From: a virus
DNA length: 15,496 nt
Direction: 5' to 3' (one strand)
Virus record (IMG/VR): IMGVR_UViG_2619619053_000002
Location: 1-15,496 of that record
Shown: positions 160-15,496 of the stretch, in pieces
Position numbering within the stretch: position 1 is the stretch's first letter
Layout: each line of letters begins with the position of its first letter
Made by a program: the position numbers and the translations under genes
The notes under the pieces: generated by a model
Seen by the model: only the letters and a program-made list of their open reading frames with translations
Told to the model about the DNA's origin: nothing
The model's database searches: none

Positions 160-174
160 TTGGTGGCATGCCTG

Positions 175-196
175 AGTATTGTCCTAAGTATTGTCC
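175..196. repeat. Two direct copies of AGTATTGTCC, 12-bp period
   Basis: AGTATTGTCC at 175-184 and 187-196, just downstream of the candidate promoter. Confidence 0.8.
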
Positions 197-309
197 CTGG
201 TGTCGTGAGGTAGTGATTCGTGGCGTTGGCTGGTGCTACGAGTGTCAGGTCTGTATCTGGTGTTGCGCTGAATGCCCCGAGAATGAGCAGTCTGTTAAGT
301 GGTGGGTGG

Positions 310-639
310 ATGATGCCAATCAGTCCTGAGAGGCGCAAGCTGTATCCGCGCAACTGGAAAGAGATCAGCTTGCGCGTTCGGCGTGAAGCTGGCTTTCGCT
401 GTCAGTGGTGTGATGCTGGCCTGGGCGAAGCTCATCCTGTGACGGGAAGCAAGGTGGTCTTGAGTGTACACCATCTCAATCATCTGCCAGAGGATTGTCG
501 TCGTGCCAACTTGGTGGCGCTGTGTCAACGGTGTCACTTGAAAGAGGACATGCGAGCGCACGTGATCAATCGGCGTGTGAATGCTGCTCGTCGTGAGCGT
601 GAAGCAGGTGAGGCGGCTGGTCAGATGCTATTGCTGTAG
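310..639 (+). CDS. HNH (His-Me finger) endonuclease, packaging-associated
   Basis: CQWC ... VHHLNH ... N ... CQRCH zinc-finger HNH pattern. Tandem ATGs at 310/313 are preceded by GGTGGGTGG. The gene lies directly upstream of the terminase genes. Upstream in-frame starts (GTG 220, ATG 283) cannot be excluded. Confidence 0.85.
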   Translation: MMPISPERRKLYPRNWKEISLRVRREAGFRCQWCDAGLGEAHPVTGSKVVLSVHHLNHLPEDCRRANLVALCQRCHLKEDMRAHVINRRVNAARREREAGEAAGQMLLL

Positions 640-722: not shown

Positions 723-1004
723 TTGCAAAAACCGGAAACATGGGATGATTTTGAGGCGCTTGCGCAAGATTTTACTAAATTAGAAGCGGCTTTGCGGGTG
801 CGTTTAGTAGAGATCGCGTTTGGGAACGGCGGCTCGGCGCAATGCCGGGCGATAGAGACCTTAATCGGCATGCCAGCGGTAGCGGGTGACGATGACATTG
901 CAGAAGGCGAACATGACGGTCTTGAATCACTGGCCCTCAGATATTTACAGTCGCGCGGATTTGTTGTCTCGCGCCCTGCGGACATCAGCGCGGACAAGTC
1001 TTAA
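723..1004 (+). CDS. Hypothetical protein in the small-terminase position (93 aa)
   Basis: TTG start preceded by GGGGGA (713-718). It lies immediately upstream of, and overlaps, the large terminase ORF. The assignment is positional only; I recognise no motif. Confidence 0.45.
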   Translation: MQKPETWDDFEALAQDFTKLEAALRVRLVEIAFGNGGSAQCRAIETLIGMPAVAGDDDIAEGEHDGLESLALRYLQSRGFVVSRPADISADKS

Positions 1005-4107: not shown

Positions 4108-6198
4108 ATGTCAATAATTACACGGACGGGTGATTTCGTTGAAGGCACTCTCGTTCCGTTCGCCGGGCCGGATGATGACGGCTTTGGGACCTGGTGGGAC
4201 GCGGATACTGATTTCGCCTTGGATCTGTACGCCCCGCATGCGTTGTTGTATTTGCACGGCGTGAAAGATCTCAAGCAGCACGGGCGTTTGCGAGATTTCG
4301 GGATTGAAGCTGATGGGCTGCATGTGCGCGGACAAATCACGCGCCGCGACAGTCCGATTTATGCGCTTGTCGACAGTGGACAAGCGGCATGGAGCAGTGG
4401 CAGCATGGCTGGCGTGGCGTCACCGGCGCGGATGGATGGCTATATCGCGCGTTGGCCAATTGTTGAAGGCAGCATCGCCCATCATCGCGTCGTGGTAGCG
4501 CGGCATGGTCTGACGAAGGCGGATTATGTTCGCGCGGGCGTTGGTGTGCGCGGGGGCGGTCAGTATTTACGAAGTGTTTGGACGGGAGCGAGTTTCATGG
4601 AGACAGCACAACAGGAAGGGCAGCAGGAAGCGCAGCATGAAGGGCAGCAGGAAGCGCAGCATGAAGGGCAGCAGGAAGCGCAGCAGGGCCAGCAGCAGGA
4701 AGCGCAGCAAGCGCAGCAGCAGGGCGCGCAAGGCGGCGCGACGGATGAAATGGCGGAGTTCCGCGCGTGGCAGGCGGAACGGGACAAAGAGAAGCGCAAA
4801 GAGGAAATGCGCGCCATGCTGGAAGAATTAGGCATAGTGCCGGAAGGCGAGAAGCCGGCGCGGGCGCTTCCGAAGGAAGGCGCGAAATCGCCAGTTAATC
4901 AGCAGGACCCGGTGATTCGCGTCGCGAGTCCATATGACCAGGTGTCGTTGCTGGGCATGGCGATGCACTATGAGGGCAAGGCGGCGTTTCGCAGCAGAAG
5001 CAATGATACGATGGCGGAATTTGACGACAAGTATTTTCGGGCGCTGGCCTACAAGGTTGAGGATCAGTGGAAGAAGGACAAAGAGGTTGAGCAAGAGTGG
5101 ATACCGACGTCGCAAGGGTTTCTCGAAGTGATTCCGATGCGAGCGATCGATTATCAGACGTACCGGAATTGGAATAATGCCATACCGAATTTGCGGGCGG
5201 ATGAAGCGATGATGTCGACGCTGGCGAATAAAGGGGATGAACTTGTTCCGACCTTGCTCTCGTCGTCTTTGTATTACTTCATGCGCCTGGAATCGATGGT
5301 CGCGCCATTGTTCCGAACTTTCAGGATGCCTAGCCAGCCCTTTGATTATCCGAAGATTACCAGCGGGCCGACCTTCGTGCGCGGGGCCGAGTTGCAGGAT
5401 TCCACGAATTTCAATATAGCAAATTCGAATATCGATTACTCGCAAATTGGCACGGACAAGGTGACGTTCACGGCGGGCAAGCTGTCGGCGATTACGTTGT
5501 ACAGTGAGGAATTGGTAGAGGATTCGACCGTTGCCTGGGCGGAGGCCGCGGCGCGGGTTTACGTGGAAGAGATGGCGCATGCCTTCGATTTCGTTATTCT
5601 GAATGGCGATATGGACGCGAACGCCACCAATATCAGTTTCTATGGCACGAATCCGAATTCTGCGATTGAGACTAAGCGGATTTTGACCTTTGACGGCATC
5701 CGTAAGAAGATTGCGGCCGCTGATCAAGTTGCCGTCGCCGACATCGCGGACGATTCTATCTTGGGCGTGATGGCGACGATGGGCAATCGCGGCATTATTG
5801 GTCGGGATATTGGTAATTTGGTCTGCATCGGTCCACCAGAGGTGGGTTACAAGCTGGACGCGCTGGATGCCTATGAAGGATTGGACAAGGTCGGCTCGCA
5901 AGCAACCTTGTTGAGCGGTCAGTTGGGCTTCTGGCGTTCGGTCCCTGTAATCATCACTGAGGAATTTCCGCAGACGGACGCCAATGGGCGCGTAGATGAT
6001 ACAGCGTCGGAGAATAGCAAGGGCGCCTGGGTGGTAGCGAATCGCAATGCCATCATGATTGGTATGCGACGTATGCCCATGATCGAGCAAGGGCGTCAGC
6101 CCGGCGTTGATGGTCGTTTCATCACGGCGTCGCTGCGAGCGGACGTGAATTTGATGGAGCCAGGCGCGGCGGCAATGGGCTACAACTCGACAGTTTAG
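4108..6198 (+). CDS. Fused prohead protease - Q/E-rich scaffold - HK97-fold major capsid protein (696 aa)
   Basis: The N-terminal ~160 aa resembles S78/HK97-type prohead protease (LLYLHG ... DGLHVRGQI ... WSSGS, His-Ser spacing about 47 aa). The middle is a QQEAQ repeat and charged coiled-coil (EMAEFRAWQAERDKEKRKEEMRAMLEEL). The C-terminus is HK97 MCP-like (FTAGKLSAITLYSEELVEDS ... FDFVILNGD). ATG 4108 has a G-rich RBS; the upstream extension to 3994 is rejected. Confidence 0.85.
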   Translation: MSIITRTGDFVEGTLVPFAGPDDDGFGTWWDADTDFALDLYAPHALLYLHGVKDLKQHGRLRDFGIEADGLHVRGQITRRDSPIYALVDSGQAAWSSGSMAGVASPARMDGYIARWPIVEGSIAHHRVVVARHGLTKADYVRAGVGVRGGGQYLRSVWTGASFMETAQQEGQQEAQHEGQQEAQHEGQQEAQQGQQQEAQQAQQQGAQGGATDEMAEFRAWQAERDKEKRKEEMRAMLEELGIVPEGEKPARALPKEGAKSPVNQQDPVIRVASPYDQVSLLGMAMHYEGKAAFRSRSNDTMAEFDDKYFRALAYKVEDQWKKDKEVEQEWIPTSQGFLEVIPMRAIDYQTYRNWNNAIPNLRADEAMMSTLANKGDELVPTLLSSSLYYFMRLESMVAPLFRTFRMPSQPFDYPKITSGPTFVRGAELQDSTNFNIANSNIDYSQIGTDKVTFTAGKLSAITLYSEELVEDSTVAWAEAAARVYVEEMAHAFDFVILNGDMDANATNISFYGTNPNSAIETKRILTFDGIRKKIAAADQVAVADIADDSILGVMATMGNRGIIGRDIGNLVCIGPPEVGYKLDALDAYEGLDKVGSQATLLSGQLGFWRSVPVIITEEFPQTDANGRVDDTASENSKGAWVVANRNAIMIGMRRMPMIEQGRQPGVDGRFITASLRADVNLMEPGAAAMGYNSTV
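4615..4686 (+). repeat. 24-bp in-frame tandem repeat x3 (GAAGGGCAGCAGGAAGCGCAGCAT), degenerating into CAG/GCG-rich sequence up to about 4735
   Basis: Units at 4615-4638, 4639-4662 and 4663-4686 (last base differs). They encode (E)GQQEAQH repeats. Confidence 0.9.
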
Positions 6199-7247: not shown

Positions 7248-8755
7248 TTCGATTTTATCTGGATACTGACGATGATTTTGATGTCAGCGTCACTTTGGAT
7301 ATCACAGATGAAATTGTGAGCTGGGAAACTTCTCGCGCTGTTGACAGGTTCAGTCGGGCGGAAAGCGAAGGACGGGCGGAATTTCTTCTGCGGCGCGGTC
7401 GCGCAAGGGCGTCGTGGTGGCGCGTCGGGCGTTTGATCGAAGGACGCGCGGGCGAGCATGTTGTCTTTCGGGGATTCATCATCGAGGCGCGGGGTAGCGC
7501 TTTCGGGCGCGTTGTCGTGCAGGCGCGAACATGGTTGCAGTTCATGGCGTGGCGGGGTCGGACACCGGATGTGGTTGGATTGGGAGCGAGTGACGGGCTG
7601 CGCCGGATAGTGAGTGAAGCGGCGGCGGGTCTTCCAGGGGCGCGAGTGCCATCGGCGGCGGTGTTGGAAGCGGCGCATGATCTCGACCCGGCGCGACGAT
7701 TGTTTTGGATAAGCGGGGATCGCCCGCTAGAGTGGGTGTCATCGGAGCGGCCGTTGTACTGGATTACCGGGCCAGAAACGGGGGTCACGTATGCCTATGG
7801 ACGTGTGGGCGATAGCGATACGGTGGGCGACGGTCTGTTGGTTGGTCCGCCGCAGCCGGAAGTAGTGGGCGACGCGGCGACGGTGATTGATCGTTTAACG
7901 GCTGTGGAATATGCGATAGAGAATTACGAATATGGGCGTTATTTGGATGAATTGTCTGTCTTGGCGAGCATCGAGCGCGGGTTTCTGTACAGTGGCGGCG
8001 AGAGTGATATAGCTTTCCAGGCGCGGGCGGAAAGCGCAGCGCCAAGCGGGGCGGCAATGGAAGTCACCGGCGCCCGGTTTGGTCGCTACGAGTACGAGTG
8101 GCGCGTCGGCAGCGCGGCGGCGGCGCAATTTGTGGGGCGGCTGCCGGATGTGCAGGCATCCGAAGGCTTGATTTATCGTCAAGAGGATTTGATAGCGCCG
8201 CCGGGCGCGTCAAGCTGGCGCGTGGTGGTGCGCGATAGAGGTCGCCCGGCGGAAGCGACGGGGGCGCTGGTGGTAGAGATGGCGCAGACAGCGGGCGTAA
8301 GCGCGCTGGCGTCGTCAGTGGCGGGCGATCTGCTGCTTGAAGTCTTCAATTCAACGGGGGCGGCGGCGCAAGTGGACTGGCTGGAAGTGACGGGCAATTT
8401 GCGCGTTTACCAAGGTGGGGCCTATGGGGATCGCGTAACCGGCCGCTACGGCGGCGCGAGCGTGGAGCTGGTGGGCGTGGGGGGTGGCGAAGCGGGCTTG
8501 AACGACGCGCTTGAGTATTGGAGCGTGGTCGGCGCTGAAGGCGGGCCAGAGGTCGCGACAGTGCGCCTAGACGGGCGGCGATATGCGGATGTCTGGGGTG
8601 GCGAATTAGGCGGCCTGTTGAGGACGGACGCGCTAGACAGAGAAGGTATCACCGGCGGCGCGGAACTGTACTGGATCGTTGGCGCTCGCGGGCTTGGGGA
8701 TCCGGCGACAGTGACAGTAGAATATGAATTGATGCGCTATGTGGATGTGAGATAG
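7244..8755 (+). CDS. Hypothetical tail protein (503 aa)
   Basis: GTG in a GTGA overlap. It is the long ORF after the adaptor. Contains an internal (D/E)RPL(E/Y)W(V/I) duplication. I recognise no family; the function is inferred from position. Confidence 0.7.
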   Translation: MIRFYLDTDDDFDVSVTLDITDEIVSWETSRAVDRFSRAESEGRAEFLLRRGRARASWWRVGRLIEGRAGEHVVFRGFIIEARGSAFGRVVVQARTWLQFMAWRGRTPDVVGLGASDGLRRIVSEAAAGLPGARVPSAAVLEAAHDLDPARRLFWISGDRPLEWVSSERPLYWITGPETGVTYAYGRVGDSDTVGDGLLVGPPQPEVVGDAATVIDRLTAVEYAIENYEYGRYLDELSVLASIERGFLYSGGESDIAFQARAESAAPSGAAMEVTGARFGRYEYEWRVGSAAAAQFVGRLPDVQASEGLIYRQEDLIAPPGASSWRVVVRDRGRPAEATGALVVEMAQTAGVSALASSVAGDLLLEVFNSTGAAAQVDWLEVTGNLRVYQGGAYGDRVTGRYGGASVELVGVGGGEAGLNDALEYWSVVGAEGGPEVATVRLDGRRYADVWGGELGGLLRTDALDREGITGGAELYWIVGARGLGDPATVTVEYELMRYVDVR

Positions 8756-13188: not shown

Positions 13189-13455
13189 TTACTCTGCGCC
13201 TATCTGGGATAGGTTCGCGGGGTCTTGTGGCGTCGCTTCGTAGTTCGATTGGAGCGCGTCGACTGCGGAACACAAGCGCACAAAGTCTTCGTAGTGTTTC
13301 CATTTTTGGGACTCGTTAAAGCGGGCGTAGCGGTTGAATGCGGGCCATACGATGGCGGTCATCGTCTGTCGCAGAACGACTTCTGGTAGAGGCGCACCGG
13401 TGTCGGCGAGCGCGCGGGCCTGCTGGACTTTTTTACTTAGGACTTGGTCGGTCAT
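13189..13455 (-). CDS. Hypothetical protein (88 aa)
   Basis: ATG at 13455 (complement), with GGAGA 8 nt upstream. The longer ORF start at 13518 lacks an RBS. Confidence 0.6.
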   Translation of the reverse strand: MTDQVLSKKVQQARALADTGAPLPEVVLRQTMTAIVWPAFNRYARFNESQKWKHYEDFVRLCSAVDALQSNYEATPQDPANLSQIGAE

Positions 13456-13547
13456 ATTAATTTCTCCGTATGTTGAACTGTACGCCGCTGTGGTGGGCGA
13501 TACTGTACAGTGTAGCACAATGGCGAGCAGGGGTCAAATTATGCCTG

Positions 13548-14270
13548 TTATGGGGGTTTTGCCGGCGGGATCCGGAATCCTGGGGGTTTAGGCAGCTTGA
13601 AAAAGTCGTGGATGGGGTGTCTTTCGGGTTTGGGCTTCACACTATCCCGCAAGGTGCTGTTTTTGCGGTTTGGCAGGGCGCGATACCATGCCAGCCACTG
13701 CACGCCTGGGAATGCGGCCAGCTGGTAGACGTGGCACCATTTGTCGTACTGGCGGCCGCGCCATACAAAGCAGCCGCGCCAGTCGAAGCTTACGCGTTCG
13801 ATCACTCCGGCCTCTCTGAGGCGTCCGACCCAGACGTTGGTCTGCTCGCGCGACAGCCCGGCGGCCCGTCCGATGTTTTCCTGCTTGGCGCTACAGTAGC
13901 CGTTGACGTACATGTACAGCAGTATCGCGCCCAGGACCCGCCCGGCGGTTGGATGCCAGTCTTCGTCGCTGTGGTTGCGCAGTATGTAGTTAGCGGCGTG
14001 GAAGGCTTCGGCGCGGCGCTGTTTGACGATCTGCTCCGTCCGGCGACGGATGTATTTGGCTTCTTTGGCGGATTTGGCGGCGGCGTGGATGTCGCGCAGG
14101 TTGTCGGCAGTGGAGTATCGATGCGGAATCAGCGCGTAGTATGTCCAGGCTGCGATGAATGGATTGCGGTTGCCTTCGACGTATTTTTCCCGGCGCATTG
14201 GCTTGTCGAGCAGCACACGAAAGTCGAGTTTCTCTAAAGGTGTTGATATTGCTTGCTTAGACGGCGTCAA
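13548..14270 (-). CDS. Winged-HTH DNA-binding protein, candidate replication initiator or early regulator (240 aa)
   Basis: wHTH-like segment SAKQENIGRAAGLSREQTNVWVGRLREAGVIERV. TTG start at 14270 with AGGA 7 nt upstream (ATG at 14198 is an alternative). It is the only obvious DNA-binding gene in the genome. Confidence 0.7.
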   Translation of the reverse strand: MTPSKQAISTPLEKLDFRVLLDKPMRREKYVEGNRNPFIAAWTYYALIPHRYSTADNLRDIHAAAKSAKEAKYIRRRTEQIVKQRRAEAFHAANYILRNHSDEDWHPTAGRVLGAILLYMYVNGYCSAKQENIGRAAGLSREQTNVWVGRLREAGVIERVSFDWRGCFVWRGRQYDKWCHVYQLAAFPGVQWLAWYRALPNRKNSTLRDSVKPKPERHPIHDFFKLPKPPGFRIPPAKPP

Positions 14271-14318
14271 CGTGTTATCCTAAAGTGTGAATTTGTGCTG
14301 GTCGAGCTGAATTCGCCG

Positions 14319-14352
14319 AACCGCCGAGCTTGCTCGGCGGTTTGTGCTTTTT
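14319..14352 (+). terminator. Orphan + strand intrinsic-terminator-like hairpin, antisense to the leader of the wHTH gene
   Basis: aaccgccgagc / gctcggcggtt (11-bp arms, minimal loop) followed by tgtgcttttt. No + strand gene lies upstream of it. Confidence 0.5.
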
Positions 14353-14555
14353 CTGTAGTGTATTTATTAAGACTTAAGACGCAAGTGGATTTGGCAGCGA
14401 ATCTTTATTCGCCTTAGAAAATATGTTCTAGGGTGGGGTACGTAGGGCAAAAAAAATGCAGTGAGCTTGTGAACCCGGATTCTCTGGGCGAGCAAGGTTT
14501 TCTGGTAGCCAACTCGCCCGCTCGCAGAAAGCGCAACAACGGAGCGTTTTTGAGA

Positions 14556-14644
14556 ACGGACGAGTTGTCGGCGGGCAAGTCTTACCTGTTCGCGGAAAAT
14601 GGATTCGGTCGCAGACCTTTCGTATCCGCCGACAACTCGTCCGT
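14556..14644. repeat. 19-bp perfect inverted repeat with a 51-nt spacer
   Basis: acggacgagttgtcggcgg (14556-14574) and ccgccgacaactcgtccgt (14626-14644). Confidence 0.9.
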
Positions 14645-14811
14645 CTATCTTCTCTCTCTCTCAACCGTACGCTTCCGGGCGTCGGGATAGCGCGGGCGCG
14701 CCGACAAGCGAAGCGCGAAGGCGCGCATAGGCGGCGGCGGGGCAGGGCGCGGGGAATGACGGGCGCGGCGTTTTTCAGCCGCGCGACCACAGCGCGCCCC
14801 CCGCGCCCAGA

Positions 14812-14945
14812 GGGAAGGCGAAAAACCGGGGGGTCTGCCGGCGGTTGCGAATCGAGTTTTCGCGCTGTTTGCGAAACGAGATGCGCGATCCGCCGGACGG
14901 GGCGCGGTGGCGCCCCGCCCCCCGCCTGGTGTTTTTCGCCTTCCC
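14812..14945. repeat. Long imperfect GC-rich palindrome with nested hairpins
   Basis: The outer arms gggaaggcgaaaaa (14812-14825) and tttttcgccttccc (14932-14945) are perfect over 14 bp. Inner pairs are G6 (14828-14833)/C6 (14918-14923) and ccggcgg (14838-14844)/ccgccgg (14890-14896). A side hairpin cggggcgc-ggtg-gcgccccg lies at 14898-14917. Confidence 0.8.
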
Positions 14946-14947
14946 GT

Positions 14948-15236
14948 CCCCGCCGCCGCCTTTCCGCGCGGGCTGGAGTATGACGGGTCTGCTGGCTCTG
15001 TCTCAGTGGCGGGCTTGAGGGCAGCAGGTTTGCGAGTGGTGTTGCGGGTATAAGCTGGGTTGGCTGTGTCGTAGTGGCTGGCTTGCTATCGCTCCCCGCC
15101 GCCGCCTAAGCGTTGGCTGAAGTATGACGGGTTTGCTGGCTCTGTCTCAGTGGCGGGCTTAAGGGCAGCAGGTTTGCGAGTGGTGTTGCCGGTACAAGCT
15201 GGGTTGGCTGTGTCGGAGTGGTTGGCTTGCTATCGC
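14948..15236. repeat. Two tandem copies of a ~144-bp unit containing four 24-bp iteron-like motifs
   Basis: 14971-15092 against 15115-15236 gives 7 mismatches in 122 nt. The motif TGGCTsTGTCnnAGTGGnkGGCTT occurs at 14993-15016, 15061-15084, 15137-15160 and 15205-15228. Confidence 0.9.
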
Positions 15237-15295
15237 GCGTAGCGCGGCCCGGGCGCGACAGTCCGTTGGCGGTTGCGCCGCCCTGCCGCAGAGCA

Positions 15296-15373
15296 GGCGT
15301 TTCTCGTCCGCCCCCCGCAAATCCCAACGATGCTAGGAAGGACGCTACTGGCGGATGGGCGGCGAGAAACGCC
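15296..15373. repeat. Stem-enclosed module R1, a paralogue of the module in the terminal repeat
   Basis: An 11-bp inverted repeat, ggcgtttctcg (15296-15306) / cgagaaacgcc (15363-15373), encloses ccgccccccgcaaatcccaacg ... aggaaggacgctactggcggatgggcgg. Confidence 0.85.
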
Positions 15374-15401
15374 AAACGAGGACGCGGCAGGCGAGCCAGA
15401 A

Positions 15402-15489
15402 GCGCCGCTCCGCCCCCCGCAAATCCCAACGGCGCCGGACGGCGCCATCATCTCAGGAAGGACGCTACTGGCGGATGGGCGGGCGGCGC
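15402..15489. repeat. Stem-enclosed module R2 (also at 4-77 via the terminal repeat)
   Basis: Same core as R1 (15410-15431 and 15455-15482), but atgct is replaced by a 23-nt insert containing the palindrome ggcgcc-ggac-ggcgcc. The module is enclosed by gcgccgc (15402-15408) / gcggcgc (15483-15489). Confidence 0.8.
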
Positions 15490-15496
15490 GAAGCGA
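15407..15496. repeat. Terminal direct repeat, right copy (identical to 1-90)
   Basis: Same 90-mer as 1-90. Confidence 0.95.

What the first reader, a model, noticed from the sequence alone, without database searches (positions are those of the whole stretch)
14948..15236. 2 x 144-bp tandem repeat carrying four 24-bp iteron-like motifs: candidate iteron origin served by the wHTH protein
Seen: two ~144-bp copies are about 94 percent identical. Each contains two copies of TGGCTsTGTCnnAGTGGnkGGCTT, with spacings of 68, 76 and 68 bp, plus an extra AGTGG-containing half-motif. The only DNA-binding gene (13548-14270, minus strand) lies about 700 bp away and is transcribed away from this block. Established: Rep_3-type plasmid initiators and lambda O-type initiators are wHTH proteins that bind directly repeated iterons. 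Inference: this is the replication origin and/or an incompatibility or copy-control locus, which would fit a plasmid-like lifestyle.
Basis: partly seen in the sequence, partly recalled or inferred. Interest (0 to 1): 0.65.

Follow-up and report, generated by a model that had tools for sequence, protein, structure and literature searches.

The report
Tandem repeat in phage control region
A real 2 x 144-bp repeat carrying four copies of a 24-bp motif lies in the large non-coding control region of a complete 15.4-kb Chloroflexi phage; it is probably an array of protein-binding sites, perhaps part of the replication origin, but nothing yet ties it to the neighbouring DNA-binding protein.

Summary
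TRF finds 14947-15236 as 2.0 copies of a 144-bp unit. The four 24-mers sit at 14993, 15061, 15137 and 15205, spaced 68, 76 and 68 bp, and occur nowhere else.

The window is a complete ~15.4-kb circular or terminally redundant tailed-phage genome of a Chloroflexota host. The block lies in a 1.35-kb non-coding region between a minus-strand early module and the HNH-TerS-TerL module.

The 240-aa minus-strand gene is real, although public gene calls take the opposite-strand shadow ORF. Its family has 21 representatives. The winged helix is of the HTH_36 / phage O-like initiator type, not Rep_3 or RepA.

The link to an iteron origin is unproven:
- The block has no adjacent AT-rich element and no DnaA boxes.
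- There is no motif copy at the gene's promoter.
- Site spacing is atypical.
- The block is absent from syntenic relatives that carry orthologues of the protein.

Different G/T-rich tandem arrays do recur in the same region of relatives, always between an HTH_36-type gene and HNH. Two other non-coding blocks are conserved and structured.

Best reading, about 35%: initiator-binding sites in the origin region. Rivals are a terminase recognition array, a transcribed leader, regulator sites and a neutral minisatellite. It is a new member of a known kind, of modest interest.

The parts
14947..15092 (+). Tandem repeat unit A (146 bp). It has a GC-rich 14-nt head, TCCCCGCCGCCGCC, which is also the 3' base of the giant hairpin. 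This is followed by a G/T-rich body carrying two 24-mers and one half-motif.
   Evidence: TRF; the repeat finder D1/D6/I1; alignment.
15093..15236 (+). Tandem repeat unit B (144 bp). It differs from unit A by 11 substitutions and a 2-bp indel. Only 2 differences fall in the 24-mers, both at positions that also vary between motifs.
14993..15016 (+). 24-mer site 1, TGGCTCTGTCTCAGTGGCGGGCTT.
15061..15084 (+). 24-mer site 2, TGGCTGTGTCGTAGTGGCTGGCTT.
15137..15160 (+). 24-mer site 3, identical to site 1.
15205..15228 (+). 24-mer site 4, TGGCTGTGTCGGAGTGGTTGGCTT.
15032..15044 (+). Half-motif GCGAGTGGTGTTG, with a second copy at 15176-15188. Together with the following TGGCTGTGT it is shared with the 51-bp tandem array of relative L027.
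13548..14270 (-). 240-aa winged-helix protein gene (TTG start, AGGA Shine-Dalgarno). It has an N-terminal helical region with a conserved GNRNP motif. The wHTH spans residues 107-153 and a long beta-hairpin wing spans 157-184. The domain is of the HTH_36 / O-like initiator type. It is the candidate binder of the repeats.
14357..14384 (-). Putative promoter of the wHTH gene: -35 TTGCGT at 14384-14379 and -10 TACACT at 14362-14357, with a 16-nt spacer. The architecture is conserved upstream of orthologues in L008, L029, L007 and L015. It lies in the only AT-rich stretch of the region (GC 0.39).
   Evidence: Sequence reading; composition. This is an inference, not a tool prediction.
14317..14354 (+). 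Intrinsic-terminator-like hairpin plus T-run on the + strand, just past the antisense of the wHTH gene. On the minus strand it is the 5'-UTR hairpin of the wHTH mRNA.
   Evidence: L001 3954-3981, which equals window coordinate minus 10363.
14441..14649 (+). Conserved structured non-coding block 1. It is also present in L013, L011/L019 and, weakly, L027.
14721..14969 (.). Giant GC-rich hairpin (GC 0.74). Its 3' arm overlaps the head of unit A. The head of unit B is a second possible partner for the 5' arm.
   Evidence: I1, I3, I5, I6; z -7.4; analogue in L013.
15257..15402 (+). Conserved hairpin unit 'block 2', copy 1. Copy 2 is at 15409-15492, which equals 3-86. The homologue is L027 4180-4399. 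A one-copy (120-bp deletion) variant exists in the population.
220..639 (+). HNH endonuclease gene, the first gene of the + strand packaging and structural operon. G/T-rich tandem arrays lie next to its homologues in L008, L027 and L013.
723..1004 (+). Conserved 93-aa ORF just upstream of TerL; a candidate small terminase subunit.
   Evidence: No family hit.

Best explanation
The 2 x 144-bp block is a lineage-specific tandem duplication, itself built on an older ~72-bp duplication. It presents four full and two partial same-orientation copies of a G/T-rich motif on duplex DNA.

It lies in the 1.35-kb non-coding control region of a complete ~15.4-kb Chloroflexota phage, between the divergent early module and the HNH-TerS-TerL late module. 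The early module contains the phage's only initiator-like protein.

The most likely role is an array of binding sites for that HTH_36 / O-like winged-helix protein. The array would form the specificity part of the replication origin, or an origin enhancer. Bound protein would help recruit the host replisome, because the phage encodes no polymerase, helicase or primase. Replication would then proceed in one direction.

Shown:
- The repeats and motifs exist.
- The motifs are invariant in the population.
- The motifs are better conserved than their flanks.
- The block lacks single-strand structure.
- The protein is real and its domain is of the initiator type.
- The genome is complete.

Inferred:
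- The protein binds these motifs.
- Binding starts replication.
For: - The repeat and four unique 24-mers are confirmed.
- The motif keeps 20/24 identity while its flanks keep 52% (null 45 +/- 3%). Unit-to-unit substitutions hit only degenerate motif positions.
- The block folds worse than all 200 shuffles (z +3.1). This argues for a duplex-DNA role rather than a structured-RNA role.
- The wHTH gene is real and conserved. Its family matches HTH_36 (16/20 members, best 1.8e-11) and phage initiator PHROGs (11/20 and 8-9/20). TerS or regulator families are hit by only 1-2 members each.
- Positional counterparts in L011 and L013 match initiator PHROGs at 1e-12 to 1e-7.
- The phage has no other replication gene.
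- Related phages carry their own, different G/T-rich tandem arrays in the same region next to an HTH_36-type gene, as expected for fast co-evolving specificity sites (L027, L013, L008).
- HTH_36 Rep proteins with a few iteron-like direct repeats are documented in plasmids (PMC3832669).
- Direct-repeat origins bound by a phage origin-binding protein are documented for SPP1 (PMC6316719).
- Non-coding, sequence-diverse origins between divergent early and late modules are documented for c2-type phages (PMC7150918).
Against: - No AT-rich unwinding element abuts the block. The block is 63% GC and its flanks are 71-74% GC. The nearest stretch at 39% GC or below is about 530 bp away.
- There are no DnaA boxes.
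- There is no motif copy at the wHTH promoter or anywhere else.
- Site spacings of 30, 38 and 76 bp are unlike classical iterons.
- The window protein itself is below the Pfam threshold for HTH_36 (13.3 vs 25 bits). Fold searches give only generic winged-helix matches.
- Orthologue-bearing relatives L007, L008 and L029 lack the block. No arrays flank orthologues in L009, L014, L015 or L016. Several of those loci are incomplete.
- The arrays are equally well associated with the HNH/packaging module.
- Sub-motifs are shared with the array of L027, whose wHTH protein is only distantly related and has a different recognition helix.
Confidence: 0.35

Rival explanations
1. Packaging recognition array (cosB/pac-like). 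On this reading the repeated motifs are binding sites for the small terminase, either the conserved 93-aa ORF at 723-1004 or, less likely, the wHTH protein. They would position HNH-TerL to cut nearby, for example in block 2.
For: - G/T-rich tandem arrays lie next to HNH in the window (about 390 bp upstream), in L008 (2 x 50 bp, 20 bp upstream), in L027 (51-bp x 2.2 and 35-bp x 2.5 flanking HNH) and in L013 (3 x 14 nt, 100-180 bp upstream).
- In L008 the array stays with HNH although the wHTH module lies on the other side.
- The array is adjacent to block 2 both in the window and in L027. Block 2 is conserved with the packaging genes.
- Sub-motifs GCGAGYGGYGTTG...TGGMTGTGT are shared between the window and L027 arrays. 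The packaging proteins are 64-70% identical, while the wHTH proteins are barely related.
- In L009 the closest wHTH homologue sits directly upstream of TerL.
- TerS binding to repeated boxes is established for SPP1 pac (PMC6316719).
Against: - No genome ends could be mapped. The clustering of contig ends at 15362-15485 is explained by a 120-bp copy-number variant.
- The TerS-like ORF has no family assignment.
- Only 1 member each of the wHTH family hits two TerS PHROGs, at about 5e-3.
- The arrays differ in sequence, unit length and position relative to HNH between relatives whose terminases are similar.
Confidence: 0.22
2. Transcribed, deliberately unstructured G-rich leader. A + strand transcript would start in the AT-rich region, fold into block 1 and the giant hairpin, then cross the G/T-rich repeats. 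There it would either form a persistent RNA:DNA hybrid that primes unidirectional replication, or serve as a regulatory leader of the late operon.
For: - Block 1 is conserved in three to four phages. It has a nested structure that fits the + strand better: 8/49 compensatory pairs, G-U pairs, and a covariation term of -2.09 versus +1.57.
- The repeat block has 40% G and 21% C on the + strand and folds worse than every shuffle.
- G>C skew is orientation-independent and never switches sign. This fits the + strand being the leading strand all round the circle.
- Origins that work without phage proteins and lie in a transcribed non-coding region exist in c2-type phages (PMC7150918).
Against: - No promoter was predicted on the + strand.
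- No canonical G-cluster initiation zone was seen by eye.
- The covariation rests on three sequences.
- Skew can also come from rolling-circle replication or from late read-through transcription.
- This reading does not explain why a discrete 24-bp motif is better conserved than its flanks.
Confidence: 0.12
3. Transcription-factor sites. On this reading the wHTH protein is a regulator (activator or repressor) of the + strand late operon. The repeats would be its upstream operator or enhancer sites.
For: - The winged helix also resembles CRP/MarR/MntR-type regulators.
- The array lies upstream of the first + strand gene.
- In L014 the orthologue sits beside an integrase, as repressors often do.
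Against: - The sites are direct rather than inverted repeats.
- They lie 390-620 bp from HNH, with structured elements in between.
- No promoter is predicted nearby.
- Phage-family matches favour initiators over regulators, 11/20 versus 1-2/20 members.
Confidence: 0.13
4. Neutral minisatellite. On this reading slippage-prone G/T-rich DNA expanded in a tolerant non-coding region and has no sequence-specific function.
For: - The block is lineage-specific. Relatives have arrays of different unit length and position.
- Other repeats in this genome vary in copy number: the capsid 24-bp repeat and the 120-bp block 2 unit.
Against: - The two units have diverged by about 8%, yet copy number is fixed at two in about 12 assemblies.
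- The motif is better conserved than its flanks.
- The genome is minimal at 15.4 kb, so 290 bp of junk is costly.
- Arrays recur in the same region in several relatives.
Confidence: 0.13

Closest known systems
Phage origins made of direct repeats bound by a dedicated origin-binding protein (SPP1 oriL/oriR with gp38; lambda ori with O protein)
   Same: A small number of repeated sites would be recognised by a phage-encoded winged-helix origin-binding protein that recruits the replisome. The wHTH family here scores against O-like and 'replication initiation' PHROGs. SPP1 origins are direct repeats plus a DUE (PMC6316719).
   Different: - No adjacent AT-rich DUE.
- The sites are not inside the initiator gene.
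- The sites are not palindromic, unlike lambda iterons (from memory).
- Spacing is 30-76 bp.
- No helicase-loader or helicase partner gene.
- Only the ~80-aa DNA-binding domain matches.
HTH_36-type plasmid Rep replicons (Paracoccus pAES7, pMARC3, pMOS2)
   Same: The initiator has an HTH_36 winged helix, and the oriV has only two iteron-like direct repeats of 18-39 bp near the rep gene (PMC3832669). 16/20 members of the window protein's family hit HTH_36.
   Different: - The window protein itself is sub-threshold for HTH_36.
- No plasmid homologues.
- No partial inverted iteron at the start of the gene.
- The repeats lie 677 bp from the gene and are embedded in 144-bp units.
- The replicon is a tailed phage.
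Satellite phage P4 crr (cis replication region) - recalled from memory, not verified here (search found nothing)
   Same: Two long direct repeats (about 120 bp in P4, 144 bp here), each carrying several copies of a short motif bound by the initiator. They lie away from the initiator gene and act as a replication enhancer.
   Different: - In P4 the same octamer is also present at a separate ori. Here no further copy exists.
- The P4 initiator is a primase-helicase, which is absent here.
Non-coding origins of lactococcal c2-type (Ceduovirus) phages
   Same: The origin lies in the non-coding region between divergently oriented early and late modules. It is flanked by promoters and differs in sequence between otherwise close relatives (PMC7150918).
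   Different: Those origins support plasmid replication without any phage protein. No tandem 144-bp units are described there. The host and phage lineage are unrelated.
Terminase recognition sites (lambda cosB R sites, from memory; SPP1 pacL/pacR)
   Same: Repeated short boxes lie next to the terminase genes and are bound by the small terminase (PMC6316719). Here the arrays lie next to HNH-TerS-TerL in several relatives.
   Different: No ends were mapped, and TerS is unassigned. The arrays vary widely between relatives with similar terminases.

Membership tests
Iteron origin of Rep_3 / RepA-type plasmids | Initiator belongs to Rep_3/RepA (two winged-helix domains) | tested here: not met
   - No Rep_3 or RepA hit for the protein or any of 20 family members in Pfam.
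- The PDB profile search gives only MntR and CRP HTH stretches.
- Foldseek finds nothing below E 0.1.
- The AF2 model shows a single wHTH.
Iteron origin of Rep_3 / RepA-type plasmids | Three or more 17-22-bp iterons in tandem at about two helical turns | tested here: not met
   There are four 24-mers at 68/76/68-bp spacing. AGTGG cores are spaced 30/38/76 bp.
Iteron origin of Rep_3 / RepA-type plasmids | Adjacent AT-rich unwinding element and DnaA boxes | tested here: not met
   The block is 63% GC and its flanks are 71-74% GC. The nearest 35-39% GC stretch is 14341-14440. No TTATCCACA (up to 1 mismatch) occurs in the non-coding region.
Iteron origin of Rep_3 / RepA-type plasmids | Inverted or partial iteron at the rep promoter (autoregulation) | tested here: not met
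   The PWM scan gives a next-best site of 9 bits against 33-36 bits for the four sites. Nothing scores in 14271-14460.
Iteron origin of Rep_3 / RepA-type plasmids | Supports autonomous replication or incompatibility | not testable with these tools
   Needs cloning and replication assays.
Lambda O-type phage origin | Initiator with an O-type N-terminal origin-binding domain | tested here: inconclusive
   - O-like PHROGs 345, 391 and 678 hit 8-9 of 20 family members, best 1.2e-7.
- Pfam Phage_rep_O hits 1 of 20, at 5.8e-4.
- The window protein itself hits only phrog_270, at 3.3e-4.
- The domain is in the C-terminal half here.
Lambda O-type phage origin | Iterons inside the initiator gene, plus a partner helicase loader (P-like) | tested here: not met
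   The gene contains only one weak partial inverted copy, at 13676-13699 (20/24, blast E 0.011, PWM 4 bits). No loader or helicase gene is present in the genome.
HTH_36-type Rep replicons | HTH_36 (PF13730) domain in the initiator | tested here: inconclusive
   16 of 20 family members match, best 1.8e-11. The window protein scores 13.3 bits against a cut-off of 25.
HTH_36-type Rep replicons | A few iteron-like direct repeats near the rep gene | tested here: met
   Direct repeats lie 677 bp upstream of the gene's 5' end. Compare PMC3832669. Binding is untested.
Terminase recognition site (cosB/pac) | Lies next to the terminase genes and the genome ends | tested here: inconclusive
   The block is adjacent to HNH-TerS-TerL in the window, and analogous arrays are adjacent in L008, L027 and L013. 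Genome ends are not mappable: contig ends are explained by the 120-bp variant.
Terminase recognition site (cosB/pac) | Bound by the small terminase subunit | not testable with these tools
   The candidate TerS (723-1004) is conserved but has no family hit.
CRISPR-like mini-array / RNA anti-CRISPR | Near-identical repeats matching a host CRISPR repeat, separated by unique spacers | tested here: not met
   - The repeats are only 83% alike.
- The 'spacers' are themselves duplicated.
- The motif is absent from viral contigs. It occurs only as two single, unrelated chance hits in metagenome contigs.
- No Rfam hit.

The most novel reading that the evidence does not exclude
The G/T-rich, deliberately unstructured tandem repeats would be the priming zone of a transcription-dependent, unidirectional origin. 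A + strand RNA would start in the AT-rich divergent-promoter region and fold into conserved block 1. It would then form a persistent R-loop over the repeats and be extended as the leading strand around the whole circle. This would explain the orientation-independent G>C skew, which has no sign change. The wHTH protein would modulate rather than melt the origin. It would be a ColE1- or T4-ori-like mechanism in a minimal tailed phage of Chloroflexota.
Probability: 0.1. Interest if true: 0.7.

Novelty: new member of a known kind. Interest (0 to 1): 0.33.

Why it matters
If the block is the initiator-binding part of the origin, it would define the minimal replication module (one ~240-aa winged-helix protein plus repeats) of a previously uncharacterised clade of very small tailed phages of Chloroflexota, about 13.6-17 kb. 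That phylum has almost no experimental phage biology. The block would also give a handle for building vectors.

The practical lessons are more certain:
- The initiator-like gene is systematically mis-annotated in public gene calls, because strand-wide G>C skew produces a longer shadow ORF.
- The non-coding region holds two conserved structured elements that deserve study.

The repeat itself is an ordinary kind of feature.

Tried and rejected
- Word-seeded protein search and IMG/VR pattern search with the 240-aa protein found nothing. The reason is that databases hold the opposite-strand ORF. The exhaustive HMMER search then found the family.
- The profile word search with A1 returned only P0138.
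- Megablast of the whole window against phages, and tblastn of the protein against phages and plasmids, gave no match.
- Rfam at E <= 1 and tRNA scans gave nothing.
- A structured-RNA reading of the repeat is rejected (z +3.1 and +0.8).
- A CRISPR-like mini-array is rejected.
- I first read the clustering of contig starts at 15374-15407 as possible physical genome ends (cos). This is rejected. L026 shows a real 120-bp one-copy variant that explains assembly breaks there.
- I first thought L027 lacked any wHTH. This is rejected: its 218-aa protein is a distant relative (hhalign 95.8%).
- GC skew cannot be used as an origin locator because there is no sign change.
- Promoter scans were uninformative: one hit against one expected.
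- The repeats inside the L009 wHTH gene reflect two similar peptide motifs, not iterons (my reading).
- I could not verify the P4 crr description in the library. PMC194990 is not held.

Full report
**1. The observation**

Tandem Repeats Finder reports 14947-15236 as 2.0 copies of a 144-bp unit, with 91% matches and score 487. The two units differ by 11 substitutions and one 2-bp indel.

No other match appears with up to three mismatches. A position-weight scan of both strands gives 33-36 bits for the four sites and at most 9 bits elsewhere.

The consensus was built from these four sites, so the independent evidence lies elsewhere. Within a unit the two 24-mers share 20/24 positions, while the sequence around them has decayed to 52% identity (shuffled null 45 +/- 3%). 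The 144-bp unit is therefore an old ~72-bp duplication in which the motif was preserved better than its flanks.

Only two of the unit-to-unit differences fall in the 24-mers, both at positions that also vary between motifs. The half-motif is GCGAGTGGTGTTG at 15032-15044 and 15176-15188. This gives six AGTGG cores spaced 30, 38, 76, 30 and 38 bp.

**2. What the window is**

The window's last 90 bases repeat its first 90 exactly. Independent assemblies from other samples run straight across that junction at 100% identity. The window is therefore a complete ~15,406-bp circular or terminally redundant genome.

It encodes the following:
- an HNH endonuclease (220-639);
- a large terminase;
- a portal;
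- a protease-capsid fusion;
- connectors and tail proteins;
- a transglycosylase.

It encodes no polymerase, helicase, primase, integrase or partition gene.

Its terminase defines a clade of contigs of about 13.6-17 kb. One relative is integrated in a 95-150-kb contig of a Chloroflexi MAG. Another was assembled as a two-copy concatemer, giving a ~13.65-kb genome.

**3. The 240-aa gene**

Public gene calls on every assembly of this phage take the + strand ORF 13470-14237. This is why the first searches with the minus-strand protein found nothing. The minus-strand protein is nevertheless the real one:
- It is 35% identical (E 5e-41) to a called minus-strand gene in the same position in L007.
- It has 21 relatives among 1.84 billion representatives.
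- It folds with confidence (pLDDT 81). The model has three N-terminal helices, a winged helix at 107-153 and a long beta-hairpin wing.

The mis-call recurs in L008 and in L029/L030. The cause is a strand-wide G>C bias. Third-codon-position skew, read in + strand sense, is +0.30 and +0.27 in the two minus-strand genes. That is the same as in + strand genes.

**4. What family the protein belongs to**

There is no Rep_3, RepA or DnaD hit. The PDB profile search and Foldseek return only generic winged-helix regulators, with DnaD-N at E >= 0.1.

At family level the picture is clearer:
- 16/20 members match Pfam HTH_36, best 1.8e-11.
- 11/20 match phrog_270 'replication initiation protein'.
- 8-9/20 match O-like initiator PHROGs.
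- Only 1-2 members each match regulator or TerS families.

The matches cover only the ~80-aa DNA-binding domain, and the window protein itself is sub-threshold. In L011 and L013 the same genomic position is occupied by 130-aa HTH_36 proteins. These hit initiator PHROGs at 1e-12 to 1e-7.

HTH_36 proteins are documented plasmid initiators with a few iteron-like repeats (PMC3832669). They also occur in Stx-phage replication modules (PMC8951638). No homologue occurs on plasmids.

**5. Anatomy of the non-coding region (14271 to 15406, continuing into 1-219)**

In order, the region contains:
- The wHTH 5' UTR, with a hairpin that on the + strand looks like an intrinsic terminator (14317-14354).
- The only AT-rich stretch (14353-14440, GC 0.39). 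It holds a promoter architecture conserved upstream of orthologues (my reading).
- Block 1 (14441-14649).
- A CT-rich linker.
- A giant GC-rich hairpin (14721-14969, z -7.4). Its 3' base is the head of repeat unit A.
- The 2 x 144 block.
- Two copies of a ~120-bp hairpin unit, block 2 (15257-15402 and 15409-86).
- The HNH upstream region.

The repeat block itself folds worse than all shuffles (z +3.1 on the + strand, +0.8 on the - strand). It is 40% G and 21% C on the + strand. No DnaA box lies in the region.

**6. Comparative evidence**

The block is invariant in about 12 assemblies, which are clonal apart from two copy-number variants elsewhere. It does not align to any relative. The motif is absent from IMG/VR and gives only two unrelated chance hits in metagenomes.

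Relatives with orthologues of the protein (L007, L008, L029) have only about 385 bp and no repeats between that gene and TerL. No arrays flank the orthologues in L009, L014, L015 or L016. Several of these loci are incomplete.

Other G/T-rich tandem arrays do recur in the same region:
- L008: 2 x 50 bp just upstream of HNH, at a contig end.
- L027: 51 bp x 2.2 and 35 bp x 2.5 flanking HNH, next to block 2 and next to a 218-aa distant wHTH relative.
- L013: 3 x 14 nt upstream of HNH.

The window and L027 arrays share the composite GCGAGYGGYGTTG-N8-24-TGGMTGTGT. It is found nowhere else in the loci. Local alignment of the two arrays beats 98.4% of shuffles. This is suggestive only, because the pattern was chosen after seeing both arrays.

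The arrays therefore always lie between an HTH_36-type gene and HNH. Synteny cannot separate an origin role from a packaging role.

**7. Conserved non-coding elements**

Block 1 is 73-76% identical in L013 and L011, although TerL is only 63-64% identical and the neighbouring HTH proteins differ. RNAalifold gives a nested structure with 8 of 49 pairs compensatory. The fit is better on the + strand. This rests on three sequences.

Block 2 is conserved in L027. It varies between one and two copies in the population.

These blocks, rather than the repeat, are what is conserved. They are candidates for cos, a host-dependent origin core, or a leader RNA.

**8. Interpretation**

The block is best read as a protein-binding array in the origin/packaging control region. 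I favour binding by the initiator-type wHTH protein (0.35) over the rivals:
- terminase recognition (0.22);
- regulator sites (0.13);
- a neutral minisatellite (0.13);
- a transcribed R-loop or leader element (0.12).

Classical iteron-origin criteria are mostly not met, and the plasmid-lifestyle inference has no support. The skew shows that replication or strand exposure is unidirectional, but it cannot place the origin.

Precedents exist for each reading:
- SPP1 ori and pac (PMC6316719);
- c2-type non-coding origins between divergent modules (PMC7150918);
- P4 crr, which I recall from memory and could not verify here.

Noticed in passing
window 13470-14237 (+) versus 13548-14270 (-); also L008 1056-1574 and L029 120-809: Public gene calls annotate a 255-aa shadow ORF on the + strand instead of the real minus-strand winged-helix gene. 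The same error recurs in relatives. As a result the real protein of this phage is missing from protein databases.
   Followed up: yes
whole window; minus-strand genes 13189-14270: G>C skew of about +0.2 on the + strand never changes sign. It is orientation-independent: third-codon skew is +0.27 to +0.30 in minus-strand genes, as in + strand genes. The host flank of the prophage relative L011 has no skew. This suggests unidirectional or rolling-circle replication.
   Followed up: partly
window 14441-14649; L013 4745-4941; L011 8051-8231; weak match at L027 3660-3733: A ~200-nt non-coding block is conserved at 73-76% between phages whose TerL is only ~64% identical. It has a nested predicted structure and compensatory changes that favour the + strand. 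No Rfam family matches. The function is unknown; it could be a leader or primer RNA, cos, or an origin core.
   Followed up: partly
window 15257-15402 and 15409-15492 (= 3-86); L027 4180-4399; L026: A ~120-bp hairpin unit (TCCGCCCCCCGCAAATCCCAACG ... AGGAAGGACGCTACTGGCGGATGGGCGG) is present twice in the window and is conserved in L027. One assembly (L026) carries a single hybrid copy. This copy-number variant explains why several contigs break here.
   Followed up: partly
window 14721-14969; L013 5005-5275: A giant GC-rich hairpin of about 250 nt (z -7.4) has a similar apex (GCGC..TTT..GCGAAACGAG) in L013 (z -4.3). The head of repeat unit B offers an alternative partner for its 5' arm.
   Followed up: partly
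window 14317-14354 (+): A strong intrinsic-terminator-like hairpin on the + strand lies immediately after the antisense of the two minus-strand genes. This suggests that late + strand transcription reads through them convergently and stops here.
   Followed up: no
window 14407-14424; L011 ~8022-8040; L016 493-546: The palindrome TTAGAAAATATGTTCTA lies between the putative divergent promoters and is conserved in L011. A related inverted pair, TTAGAAAAT...ATTTTCTAA, lies upstream of the wHTH orthologue in L016. It is a possible operator.
   Followed up: no
window 4612-4730: A 24-bp tandem repeat (about 4.6 copies, encoding QQEAQHEG-like repeats) lies between the protease and capsid parts of the fusion gene. 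Assemblies differ by one unit (688-aa versus 696-aa gene calls).
   Followed up: partly
window 723-1004 (+): A conserved 93-aa ORF (45-47% identity to L007 and L027 counterparts) lies just upstream of TerL and overlaps the long TerL ORF. It is a candidate small terminase with no family hit. The true TerL start is probably downstream of 886.
   Followed up: partly
window 13676-13699 (-): A partial inverted copy of the right half of the motif plus its flank (GCAGTGGCTGGCATGGTATCGCGC, 20/24) lies inside the non-conserved tail of the wHTH gene. Its significance is borderline (blast E 0.011; PWM 4 bits).
   Followed up: partly
L015 1032-1412; L027 2893-3291; L011 8320-8880: Some relatives carry an IS200-like Y1 HUH transposase gene next to the regulatory module. 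The prophage L011 has six or more REP-like hairpins (GCCGCGTTCTTTGCGGC) in its non-coding region. There may be a link between HUH enzymes and the hairpin-rich region.
   Followed up: no
L013 3682-3745: Three tandem 21-22-bp units each contain the palindrome TGTCATTTTGACA. They lie between the HTH_36 gene and the homologue of the window's 109-aa gene, and look like an operator or iteron array.
   Followed up: no
window 171-196: A small 12-bp tandem repeat (CCTAAGTATTGT x 2.2) lies just upstream of the HNH start, in a moderately AT-rich stretch.
   Followed up: no
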